Of a stretch of 11,196 nucleotides of DNA, positions 4,561 to 4,627 are shown piece by piece. Numbering within the stretch: the first letter of the stretch is position 1; every line of letters starts with the position of its first letter. Location of the stretch: the IMG/VR virus record IMGVR_UViG_2541047814_000003, positions 1 through 11,196 of that record; one strand, 5' to 3'. The DNA is from a virus. Taxonomy: Duplodnaviria; Heunggongvirae; Uroviricota; Caudoviricetes. Made by a program: the position numbers and the translations under genes. Under the pieces are notes generated by a model. The model did no database searches, had not been told where the DNA came from, and was given only the letters and a program-made list of their open reading frames with translations.

Positions 4561-4598
4561 GCCCGATAAGCCACCTCTGACCTTATCGGGCTTTTTTT
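4561..4598. terminator. Second hairpin terminator, bidirectional (strong on plus strand)
   Basis: GCCCGATAAG (4561-4570) / CTTATCGGGC (4582-4591), followed by TTTTTTT (4592-4598) on plus and preceded by AAAA (TTTT on minus). Confidence 0.6.
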
Positions 4599-4604
4599 GG
4601 GCGC

Positions 4605-4627
4605 AAAAAAGCCGGATTGCTCCGGCT
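4605..4627 (-). terminator. Rho-independent terminator after the PerC-like gene
   Basis: Plus-strand AAAAAAGCCGGATTGCTCCGGCT: stem AGCCGGA/TCCGGCT, on the minus strand followed by a T-tract. Confidence 0.65.

What the first reader, a model, noticed from the sequence alone, without database searches (positions are those of the whole stretch)
4561..4627. Stacked terminators between operons, one nearly duplicated at 2332-2354, and a possible small plus-strand RNA
Two hairpins in tandem separate the upstream operon from the head operon. The 4605-4627 sequence AAAAAAGCCGGATTGCTCCGGC recurs almost exactly at 2333-2354. The 4561-4598 hairpin has a 7-T tail on the plus strand where no plus-strand gene exists, which could mark the 3' end of a small RNA arising in the 4460-4560 interval. 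I could not find a convincing plus-strand promoter.
Basis: seen in the sequence. Interest (0 to 1): 0.35.

Follow-up and report, generated by a model that had tools for sequence, protein, structure and literature searches.

The report
Opposed terminators and candidate satellite sRNA
In a phage-parasitic island of E. coli closely related to EcCICFT073, the two neighbouring hairpins point in opposite directions: one ends the upstream operon, and the other probably ends a short, previously unreported non-coding RNA made divergently from the island's capsid operon, although no expression data were available to prove it.

Summary
Both hairpins are at the stated coordinates, and the 22-nt terminator recurs at 2333-2354 with one mismatch (none expected by chance).

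The window is an EcCICFT073-type phage-inducible chromosomal island (PICI), with all genes on the minus strand.

The hairpins are not stacked; they have opposite polarity:
- **T1 (4605-4627) and its copy (2333-2354)** are minus-strand terminators. They end the PerC unit and the four-gene capsid unit. This motif punctuates these islands 2-3 times each.
- **T2 (4561-4598)** scores as a terminator on the plus strand and only marginally on the minus strand. This held in 56 of 56 distinct homologous regions and in a Salmonella homologue checked by hand. In other lineages, unrelated hairpin sequences fill the same slot with the same polarity.

A plus-strand extended -10 promoter lies at 4485-4513 (TTGAGT, 17 nt with TG, AATGAT). 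It ranks 8th of 111,610 placements in the window. It sits back-to-back with the capsid promoter and recurs in three further lineages.

Together these predict an RNA of about 79 nt (about 4520-4598). It has no conserved ORF, no Rfam match and a poorly conserved body.

Expression is unproven. I found no report of it in the papers I could search. Interest is moderate.

The parts
4605..4627 (-). T1: intrinsic terminator of the upstream (PerC-family gene) transcription unit. Stem AGCCGGA / TCCGGCT, loop GCAA, U6 tail.
   Evidence: Terminator scan. Fold -12.6 kcal/mol, z -5.3. d score +22.5 on the minus strand and -27.2 on the plus strand. It follows at least five different upstream genes in homologues.
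4557..4598 (+). T2: hairpin with a 10-bp G+C-rich stem, extendable to 14 bp by A4/T4, an 11-nt variable pyrimidine-rich loop and a U7 tail on the plus strand. Predicted terminator of a plus-strand transcript, with at most weak or bidirectional activity on the minus strand.
   Evidence: (I18). d score +13.9 on the plus strand and -0.9 on the minus strand. The plus-strand score exceeded the minus-strand score in 56 of 56 distinct homologous regions. Unrelated hairpins with T5-T9 plus-strand tails fill the same slot in L207-type E. coli, Salmonella L208 and Pluralibacter L211.
4485..4513 (+). Candidate plus-strand sigma-70 promoter (P_as): -35 TTGAGT (4485-4490), 17-nt spacer with TG at 4505-4506 (extended -10), -10 AATGAT (4508-4513). 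Predicted start about 4520.
   Evidence: PWM score 11.1 bits, rank 8 of 111,610 placements on both strands of the window. The same slot reads TTGACT / TTGATC / TTGACA, then 17 nt with TG, then AAT-N-AT in L207, L208 and L211, and it is the best site on that strand there.
4520..4598 (+). Predicted non-coding RNA of about 79 nt. The 5' end is inferred (plus or minus a few nt); the 3' end lies in the U7 tract. A longer form of about 133 nt, starting near 4466 at the mirror -10 (TATAAT 4454-4459), is also possible.
   Evidence: Inferred from P_as plus T2. Fold -22.6 kcal/mol, z -4.2. No conserved ORF, and the body is poorly conserved. No Rfam family matched at E <= 1.
4452..4479 (-). Promoter of the capsid unit (P_cap): -35 TTGCTC (4479..4474; TTGCAC in most relatives), 16-nt spacer, -10 TATAAT (4457..4452). 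Predicted start about 4445.
   Evidence: PWM rank 5 in the window. The -10 is conserved in 57 of the 58 distinct E. coli-type sequences; the divergent L207 lineage has TAAAAT in that slot. The c1498-c1501 homologues behave as one co-regulated unit in CFT073 (PMC12890032).
4464..4480 (.). Palindrome ATTGCA-N5-TGCAAT (one mismatch in the window) lying over the -35 of P_cap, between the two divergent promoters. Probable regulator binding site.
   Evidence: Read from the sequence. It is conserved in the E. coli variants and in the divergent L207 lineage.
4423..4454 (-). Perfect 15-bp inverted repeat (AATCATAACTGGATG / CATCCAGTTATGATT) followed by U6. It overlaps the -10 and the start of P_cap. It could be an operator, a 5' stem-loop, or a third barrier to read-through.
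   Evidence: I13; -17.7 kcal/mol, z -6.5. The core (pairs 9-14) is nearly invariant, while the outer pairs show both compensatory changes and mismatches.
2333..2354 (-). T1': second copy of the T1 terminator, directly after the 137-aa gene. It ends the four-gene capsid unit (68 aa, capsid E, decoration D, scaffold-like).
   Evidence: -14.1 kcal/mol. d score +23.4 on the minus strand. It is present at the same place in most homologous loci long enough to include it.
2361..4395 (-). Capsid transcription unit bounded by T1/T2 and T1': 68-aa protein (4189-4395), lambda E-like major capsid (3134-4189), lambda D-like decoration (2787-3122), 137-aa scaffold-like protein (2361-2774).
   Evidence: Pfam and PHROG hits. 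Same gene order as c1498-c1501 of EcCICFT073.
4650..4922 (-). PerC-family regulator gene, the last gene of the upstream unit, which T1 terminates.
   Evidence: Pfam PF06069, E 9e-36.

Best explanation
The 254-bp spacer (4396-4649) is the junction of two co-directional minus-strand transcription units of an EcCICFT073-type PICI. It appears to hold a third, opposed, very short transcription unit.

- T1 (4605-4627) terminates the upstream unit, which ends with the PerC-family gene.
- A nearly identical copy, T1' (2333-2354), terminates the capsid unit (68 aa, capsid, decoration, scaffold-like).
- T2 (4561-4598) is mainly a plus-strand terminator. It ends a non-coding RNA of about 79 nt that starts near 4520 from an extended -10 promoter (TTGAGT, 17 nt with TG, AATGAT; 4485-4513).
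- That promoter lies back-to-back with the capsid promoter (TTGCTC, 16 nt, TATAAT; 4479..4452). The two -35 hexamers are 5 bp apart, the predicted starts are about 75 bp apart, and a conserved palindrome lies between them.
- T1 and T2 are therefore a convergent terminator pair, which keeps the PerC transcript and the small transcript from running into each other.

What is shown: the hairpins, their opposite polarity, the conservation of that polarity, and the conservation of the promoter-like site.

What is inferred: that the promoter fires, the 5' end, and any function.

My preferred function is local. Either the divergent promoter and its short transcript compete with or modulate the capsid promoter, in a lambda PR/PRM-like geometry, or the transcript is a by-product that T2 keeps out of the regulatory module. 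A trans-acting Hfq-type sRNA is possible because of the long U tail, but the poor conservation of the RNA body makes it less likely.
For: - Identity of the element: 96% identity to E. coli islands with integrase, AlpA-like regulator, primase, PerC, capsid and TerS genes. The CFT073 spacer is near-identical.
- Polarity: T1-family hairpins score d = +9.6 to +39.5 on the operon strand in the scan (one variant with a mutated stem, L231, scored +0.3; Salmonella +41.0) and negative on the other strand where tested. T2-family hairpins score +3.4 to +44.9 on the window-plus strand against -11.5 to +12.8 on the operon strand. The plus-strand score was higher in 56 of 56 distinct regions and in Salmonella.
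- Replacement with retained polarity: the L207 class has A7-A9, then TCCCCCGG..CCGGGGGA, then only TTTCAT on the operon strand. Salmonella and Pluralibacter carry other stems with T5CT3 and T8 plus-strand tails. L231 keeps the hairpin through a paired C/G insertion.
- Linkage: T2 travels with the capsid promoter region, not with the upstream gene. Homology breakpoints fall at 4597 or at 4627-4637.
- Promoter: rank 8 of 111,610 placements in the window. In three divergent lineages it is the top site on that strand, the -35 moves towards or reaches the consensus (TTGACA in Pluralibacter), and TG with A-11/T-7 is invariant while the fourth -10 position takes all four bases.
- The capsid unit is a separate unit: c1498-c1501 are reported as co-induced at 37 C in CFT073 (PMC12890032).
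- Not a known RNA: no Rfam hit. It is not Esr41 or PasB.
Against: - I had no transcript data of any kind.
- The promoter has only 4 of 6 matches in each hexamer in the window. Its -35 is degraded in a few E. coli variants (L206, L028).
- The invariant block GTTGCAAATTATGAAAT could be conserved as an upstream activator or UP site of the capsid promoter rather than as a plus-strand promoter.
- On the minus strand T2 still has a strong stem plus U4 and a second U run, so it may add to insulation, and an upstream A-tract is typical of bidirectional terminators.
- The predicted RNA body is poorly conserved between lineages (mean column identity 62%, mostly from the promoter and terminator).
- No convincing target was found among the island's own translation-initiation regions.
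- Published descriptions call Gram-negative PICIs unidirectionally transcribed (PMC6092414).
Confidence: 0.6

Rival explanations
1. Both hairpins serve only the minus strand. T1 and T2, and perhaps the 4423-4454 hairpin with its U6 tail, form a multi-layer insulator. It stops read-through from the early/PerC unit into the capsid unit. The long T run on the plus strand is just the A-tract often found upstream of efficient or bidirectional terminators. No dedicated plus-strand transcript exists.
For: - The T2 stem is strong on the minus strand (-22.6 kcal/mol) and is followed by U4 and a second U5-U8 run.
- The capsid unit is separately regulated, so tight insulation makes sense.
- The literature describes these islands as transcribed in one direction.
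Against: - The minus-strand d score of T2 is about zero or negative in most variants. In the L207 class the operon-strand tail is only TTTCAT, while the opposite strand has T7-T9.
- T1 alone already scores +22 to +40.
- Three unrelated hairpins keep the same plus-strand bias.
- A top-ranked, cross-genus conserved promoter faces T2.
Confidence: 0.25
2. A plus-strand transcript exists but is only a by-product. It would arise from spurious divergent initiation at the symmetric -10 (ATGATTATAATCAT, 4450-4463) or from antisense starts inside the capsid genes. T2 is selected only to stop this RNA from reading antisense into the PerC and replication genes. The RNA itself has no function.
For: - The -10 region of P_cap is a perfect palindrome that places TATAAT on both strands (4452-4457 and 4454-4459). 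The plus-strand version ranks 17th in the window.
- The RNA body is poorly conserved.
- No target was found.
Against: - The better-scoring and better-conserved plus-strand promoter is the one at 4485-4513. It keeps TG and A-11/T-7 across genera, and its -35 approaches or reaches the consensus in other lineages. That argues for selection on initiation there.
- In the L207 lineage the mirror -10 is not a good -10 on the plus strand.
Confidence: 0.12
3. The repeated T1 motif and T2 are mainly recombination junctions. They would be conserved boundary sequences at which modules of these islands are exchanged, and any terminator function would be secondary.
For: - Homology breakpoints between relatives fall exactly at the hairpin edges.
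- There are 2-3 co-oriented T1 copies per element, found after PerC, after the ECs1589-like gene, after ssb and after the 137-aa gene.
- Extra shared flank (TTTTTTACGGGTYCT) accompanies some copies.
- The motif is confined to about 790 of 5,426 genomes.
Against: - This does not explain the strict orientation with U tails, the invariant stems with free loops, or the replacement of T1 and T2 by different hairpins of the same polarity in other lineages.
- It is compatible with the best explanation rather than an alternative to it.
Confidence: 0.03

Closest known systems
EcCICFT073, the prototype Gram-negative phage-inducible chromosomal island (Fillol-Salom et al. 2018, 2019; PMC6092414, PMC6739421)
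   Same: - Same gene order: integrase, AlpA-like regulator, DUF4222/RgdR-like, primase, ori iterons, ssb, PerC, c1498-c1501 homologues.
- The PerC-to-c1498 spacer of CFT073 is nearly identical to window 4396-4649, including T1, T2, both promoters and the inverted repeat.
   Different: - The window is inserted next to clpS rather than phoQ.
- It carries a Nu1-like TerS (180 aa) where CFT073 has the 144-aa gene.
- It has a nonsense codon in ssb.
- In the papers I read on this island and its relatives, the spacer, its terminators and any anti-operon RNA are not described.
Convergent or bidirectional intrinsic terminators at the ends of opposed transcription units
   Same: - G+C-rich hairpins with U tracts.
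- An A-tract on one side and a T-tract on the other side of T2.
- Two terminators of opposite polarity placed tail to tail.
   Different: The flanking protein genes are co-directional, so the opposed unit contains no gene. This is what makes the plus-strand terminator informative.
Short phage regulatory RNAs made near a switch region, e.g. lambda OOP RNA (77 nt) or P4 CI RNA (my own knowledge, not tested here)
   Same: A small (about 60-90 nt) untranslated transcript with its own promoter and a strong intrinsic terminator, inside the regulatory spacer of a mobile element and divergent from or antisense to a structural or regulatory operon.
   Different: - No sequence or structural similarity, and no Rfam hit.
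- It does not overlap the capsid mRNA. It is antisense only to read-through RNA from the upstream unit.
- Function unknown.
Island- and prophage-encoded Hfq-dependent sRNAs of pathogenic E. coli (Esr41, AgvB/AsxR, PasA-D)
   Same: An intergenic location in a horizontally acquired element, a length of 50-170 nt, and a terminator with a long U tail.
   Different: It is a different locus and sequence.
- Esr41 lies in SpLE1, and I found no similarity between the window and the SpLE1 stretch I fetched at the published coordinates; I could not recognise Esr41 itself in that stretch, possibly because the record version differs.
- PasB lies between tail genes of a lambdoid prophage, and its probe is absent from the window.
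- No Sp7 entry appears among the EcOnc RNAs, but Sakai's island has a different capsid module.

Membership tests
Intrinsic (Rho-independent) terminator: T1 and T1' | G+C-rich stem, short loop, followed at once by a U tract on the transcribed strand | tested here: met
   7-bp stem with 5 G-C pairs, 4-nt loop, U6. d = +22.5 and +23.4.
Intrinsic (Rho-independent) terminator: T1 and T1' | Placed just downstream of a stop codon and co-oriented with the gene | tested here: met
   22 nt after the PerC stop (4650) and 6 nt after the stop of the 137-aa gene (2361). It is co-oriented with the genes in every locus that carries it (82 of the 84 scanned).
Intrinsic (Rho-independent) terminator: T1 and T1' | Demonstrated 3' ends or termination activity | not testable with these tools
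   Needs Term-seq or an in vitro assay.
Intrinsic terminator on the plus strand: T2 | Stable hairpin followed at once by a long U tract on that strand | tested here: met
   10-bp stem (14 bp with A4/U4), U7. d = +13.9 on the plus strand. Positive on that strand in 56 of 56 homologous regions.
Intrinsic terminator on the minus strand: T2 (the 'stacked' reading) | Long U tract directly after the hairpin on the minus strand | tested here: inconclusive
   Only U4, then GCAUAUGAGG, then U6. d = -0.9 (range -11.5 to +12.8). In the L207 class only UUUCAU follows.
Independent small non-coding RNA gene | Own promoter upstream on the same strand | tested here: met
   As a prediction only. An extended -10 promoter at 4485-4513 ranks 8th of 111,610 placements and is conserved in four lineages.
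Independent small non-coding RNA gene | No conserved open reading frame | tested here: met
   The only short ORFs differ between lineages, and the A-run length varies.
Independent small non-coding RNA gene | Detected transcript of defined size | not testable with these tools
None was found in the papers searched.
Hfq-type trans-acting sRNA | Terminator with a long (7 or more) U tail and a conserved single-stranded seed | tested here: inconclusive
   The U7-U9 tail is met in most lineages (Salmonella has U5CU3). The seed is not met, because the body is poorly conserved; only a CCUC-type motif recurs in the loop in most variants. No significant pairing to the island's own TIRs.
Any described RNA family (Rfam 15) | Covariance-model match | tested here: not met
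   No hit in 4396-4660 at E <= 1. The only two weak hits in the window lie elsewhere and are chance-level.
Gram-negative PICI (EcCICFT073 type) | Integrase, AlpA-type regulator, primase/rep with adjacent iteron ori, size about 10-15 kb, genes in one direction, packaging-related genes at the far end | tested here: met
   ORFs, Pfam hits and annotation of near-identical islands. Iterons at 5633-5850. Synteny and spacer identity with CFT073.

The most novel reading that the evidence does not exclude
EcCICFT073-type PICIs, so far described as transcribed in one direction and lacking a known repressor, may encode a conserved divergent small RNA. Its promoter would form a back-to-back switch with the capsid (c1498-c1501) promoter. 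The RNA, or its transcription, would regulate the island's capsid unit or a helper-phage or host target. This would be the first regulatory RNA of a Gram-negative phage satellite of this family.
Probability: 0.25. Interest if true: 0.6.

Novelty: new member of a known kind. Interest (0 to 1): 0.4.

Why it matters
EcCICFT073 is the reference Gram-negative PICI. Its regulation downstream of AlpA is poorly understood, and c1498-c1501 (capsid and decoration) have no known phenotype. A conserved anti-operon promoter and terminator pair next to that unit gives a concrete, cheaply testable handle on how the unit is controlled. It would also qualify the statement that these islands are transcribed unidirectionally. 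The same sequence is present in CFT073 and Nissle 1917, so existing strand-specific RNA-seq could settle the question.

The terminator repeat itself is ordinary biology. It does document that one portable terminator motif marks module boundaries across hundreds of islands, which is useful for annotating transcription units and recombination junctions in satellites.

Tried and rejected
- **Known EHEC/EPEC island sRNAs.** Esr41 (SpLE1) and the EcOnc list have no counterpart at this locus. PasB lies between tail genes of a lambdoid prophage, and its probe is absent from the window.
- **Rfam.** Nothing was found in the spacer.
- **Phage database.** The spacer has no significant match among 50,697 phage records, so it is specific to the satellite.
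- **Genome-contig scans.** The capsid protein gave no confirmed relative. A 16-mer from the invariant block returned only chance hits in unrelated phyla (loci L086-L205 should be ignored).
- **Small ORFs in the spacer on either strand.** Rejected, because the homopolymer length varies and the ORFs differ between lineages.
- **Pairing of the predicted RNA with the translation-initiation regions of 14 island genes.** None was clearly better than shuffled controls (best z about -1.9).
- **Strand test by G-U asymmetry.** T2 has almost no stem variation: 2 cells favour the plus strand and none favours the minus strand. The 4423-4454 repeat gives 28 cells against 11 in favour of the operon strand, but with many mismatches. 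Neither result is decisive.
- **A resemblance between the T2 loop (GGUCAGAGG) and the RBS of the 68-aa gene (GUCAAAGAGG).** I noted it but did not pursue it, because other loop variants share only GAGG.

Full report
**What the window is.** All long ORFs lie on the minus strand. Megablast against complete E. coli genomes finds islands with 96% identity. They are annotated with integrase, an HTH (AlpA-like) regulator, a DUF4222 protein, primase, ssb, a PerC-family regulator, major capsid, head decoration and small terminase, and they are inserted next to clpS. Pfam and PHROGs confirm the following:
- PerC at 4650-4922;
- a lambda E-type capsid at 3134-4189;
- a lambda D-type decoration protein at 2787-3122;
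- a 137-aa protein resembling the scaffold end of head proteases at 2361-2774;
- a Nu1-type TerS at 1613-2155.

The gene order is that of EcCICFT073, the prototype Gram-negative phage-inducible chromosomal island (PICI). The CFT073 spacer between PerC and c1498 is nearly identical to window 4396-4649. In O157:H7 Sakai the related island (Sp7 / CP-933C) keeps the replication and PerC part but carries an HK97-type head module instead. The spacer under study is therefore a module junction.

**Checking the observation.**
- T2 has stems at 4561-4570 and 4582-4591, an 11-nt loop and T7 at 4592-4598.
- T1 has stems within 4610-4627 and a U6 tail on the minus strand.
- The 22-mer at 4605-4626 recurs at 2333-2354 with one mismatch. 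None of 200 shuffles gave a match even with three mismatches allowed. The similarity extends to 30 nt.

**T1 is a family-wide, portable minus-strand terminator.**
- In 82 of 84 related loci the motif GCCGGAG-NAAT-CCGGC-T6 occurs one to three times, always co-oriented with the genes. It appears after PerC, after an ECs1589-like gene, after ssb, and after the 137-aa gene.
- With its flank it is found in 790 of 5,426 E. coli genomes. It is therefore not a generic E. coli terminator.
- At least five different upstream genes abut the same T1. Homology between relatives breaks exactly at hairpin edges, at window 4627-4637 or at 4597.
- In one class (the L059 type; the Nissle-type sequences appear to belong to it) about 170 nt of unrelated A+T-rich DNA separates T1 from T2.
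- The copy at 2333-2354 lies directly after the last gene of the four-gene capsid cassette. In CFT073 exactly these genes (c1498-c1501) are reported to rise together after a shift to 37 C (PMC12890032). This fits a separate transcription unit that starts in the spacer and ends at T1'.

**The two hairpins have opposite polarity.** I scored hairpin energy per nucleotide and the U tail with the d'Aubenton-Carafa function, where d > 0 predicts a terminator.

| Hairpin | Minus (operon) strand | Plus strand |
|---|---|---|
| T1 | +22.5 | -27.2 |
| T1' | +23.4 | -33.2 |
| T2 | -0.9 | +13.9 |

An automated scan of 56 distinct homologous upstream regions gave the same picture.
- The best terminator on the anti-operon strand was always T2, with d from +3.4 to +44.9.
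- T2's operon-strand score was always lower, from -11.5 to +12.8.

Three diverged lineages are more telling, because the hairpin sequence itself differs while the slot and the polarity are kept.
- **L207 class of E. coli.** A7-A9 precedes TCCCCCGG-GATGAGGTT-CCGGGGGA, and only TTTCAT follows on the operon strand.
- **Salmonella.** The stem is CCCCCAACC...GGCTGGGGG, with T5CT3 on the anti-operon strand against T4 on the operon strand.
- **Pluralibacter.** The stem is GCCCGCT...AGCGGGC, with T8 against T4.

One variant (L231) lengthens the stem by a paired C/G insertion. T2 also travels with the capsid promoter region rather than with the upstream gene. 'Stacked terminators' is therefore not the best description. 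T1 and T2 form a convergent pair, and that implies a plus-strand transcript.

**A candidate plus-strand promoter exists.**
- A simple sigma-70 position-weight scan of both strands of the window ranks the capsid promoter fifth. That promoter reads TTGCTC, 16 nt, TATAAT (4479..4452; TTGCAC in most relatives).
- The same scan ranks a plus-strand site eighth of 111,610 placements. It has -35 TTGAGT (4485-4490), a 17-nt spacer with TG at -15/-14 (4505-4506), and -10 AATGAT (4508-4513).
- The aligned slot reads TTGACT + 17(TG) + AATTAT or AATCAT in the L207 class, TTGATC + 17(TG) + AATAAT in Salmonella, and TTGACA + 17(TG) + AATTAT in Pluralibacter. In each it is the best site on that strand.
- TG, A-11 and T-7 are invariant. 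The fourth -10 position takes all four bases, as expected for a real -10 element.
- Two E. coli variants have a degraded -35 (L206, L028), which an extended -10 promoter may tolerate.
- The predicted start near 4520 gives an RNA of about 79 nt ending in the U7 tract of T2. It folds at -22.6 kcal/mol, z -4.2.
- The -10 of the capsid promoter lies in a perfect palindrome (ATGATTATAATCAT). A second, weaker plus-strand start near 4466, giving about 133 nt, is therefore conceivable (rank 17).

**What the RNA is not.**
- It has no Rfam match and no conserved ORF.
- It is not Esr41, any listed EcOnc RNA, or PasB.
- Its body is poorly conserved across lineages. The conserved columns are almost all in the promoter and terminator.
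- It shows no pairing to the island's own ribosome-binding regions beyond shuffled controls.
- A pyrimidine-rich CCUC-type motif recurs in the terminator loop in most variants. This is suggestive only.

**Architecture and likely mechanism.**
- The two -35 hexamers are 5 bp apart and the predicted starts about 75 bp apart.
- Between them lies a palindrome, ATTGCA-N5-TGCAAT (4464-4480). It is kept even in the L207 lineage.
- An invariant 17-nt block overlaps the plus-strand spacer.
- Downstream of the capsid -10 is a perfect 15-bp inverted repeat followed by U6 (4423-4454). Its core is nearly invariant, and its outer pairs show both compensatory changes and mismatches.
- This is the geometry of a back-to-back regulatory switch.
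- I consider it most likely that the plus-strand promoter and its short transcript act locally. They could compete with or modulate the capsid promoter, or they could simply be contained by T2 so that transcription does not read antisense into PerC and the replication genes.
- A trans-acting Hfq-type role is possible because of the U7-U9 tails, but the variable body weakens it.
- All of this beyond the sequence features is inference.

**Comparison with what is known, and novelty.** The island is a member of the EcCICFT073 family, and T1 and T1' are ordinary intrinsic terminators. The papers I could read on EcCICFT073 and its relatives describe unidirectional transcription and do not mention this spacer, its terminators or an anti-operon RNA. 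My searches for PICI-associated small RNAs found nothing relevant. The candidate RNA is thus a new member of a known kind: a small RNA encoded on a mobile element, with a convergent terminator pair. It stays a prediction until a transcript is shown.

**Verdict.**
The terminator duplication is real and explained. 'Stacked' should be replaced by 'opposed'.
- The small-RNA idea is strengthened, with a promoter and comparative support.
- I put about 0.6 on the existence of the plus-strand transcript, and about 0.25 on it being a functional regulator.

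Noticed in passing
window 5077-5079 (ssb, 4909-5319, minus strand): The ssb gene has an in-frame stop at codon 82 (W to stop). The rest of the frame is 97% identical to the intact 136-aa SSB of related islands, so ssb is probably a pseudogene here. This is why ORF lists show an 80-aa SSB fragment and an over-long 122-aa 'PerC' ORF.
   Followed up: yes
window 5633-5850: A dense set of direct and inverted GGTGAACAGT iterons lies between the 81-aa gene and the primase gene. This is the expected PICI replication origin. It caused a spurious weak Rfam 'MIR1508' hit.
   Followed up: partly
window 835-1270: Two to three copies of a repeat of about 310 bp period (51-60-nt blocks at 80-98% identity, plus 25-nt sub-repeats TTCCGAAAATATCAGCGGGTTAGCG) lie downstream of the last island gene. 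It is partly shared with the end of Sakai Sp7. It could be the cos/packaging region or the att-proximal region.
   Followed up: no
window 335-510: About 80% identity to unannotated stretches of Stx-converting and PPompW prophages and small induced E. coli phage records. The meaning is unknown.
   Followed up: no
window 2361-4395; CFT073 c1498-c1501: A published CFT073 transcriptome reports this exact four-gene capsid cassette as notably induced by a 23 C to 37 C shift without helper induction (PMC12890032). The cassette is flanked by direct copies of the T1 terminator, like a self-contained insert.
   Followed up: partly
window 4189-4395: The 68-aa first gene of the capsid unit (PHROG 3255, no Pfam hit) is conserved in E. 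coli, Salmonella and Pluralibacter. Its function is unknown. Its N-terminal GGVSVYISPDIV..ALK.R pattern looks like a ribbon-helix-helix DNA-binding motif to me, so it might be the regulator that binds the spacer palindromes. This was not tested.
   Followed up: no
L059 1918-2092 (also L206, L212, L213): In one class of islands about 170 nt of A+T-rich non-coding DNA is inserted between T1 and T2. Its first 15 nt after T1 (ACGGGTYCTYCCTGG) resemble the sequence after T1' in the window (2318-2332).
   Followed up: partly
window 7663-7962: The 99-aa DUF4222 protein is the same size as RgdR (ECs1581), a characterised activator of LEE1 and type III secretion in O157:H7, and occupies the same position next to the primase gene.
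   Followed up: partly
window 8667-8987 (+) and 9292-9311 (+): This is the only likely plus-strand protein gene of the island, YlcI/YnfO-like by annotation of a relative. A strong plus-strand terminator-like hairpin follows at 9292-9311. The 348-aa minus-strand ORF at 8282-9328 is probably not a gene.
   Followed up: no
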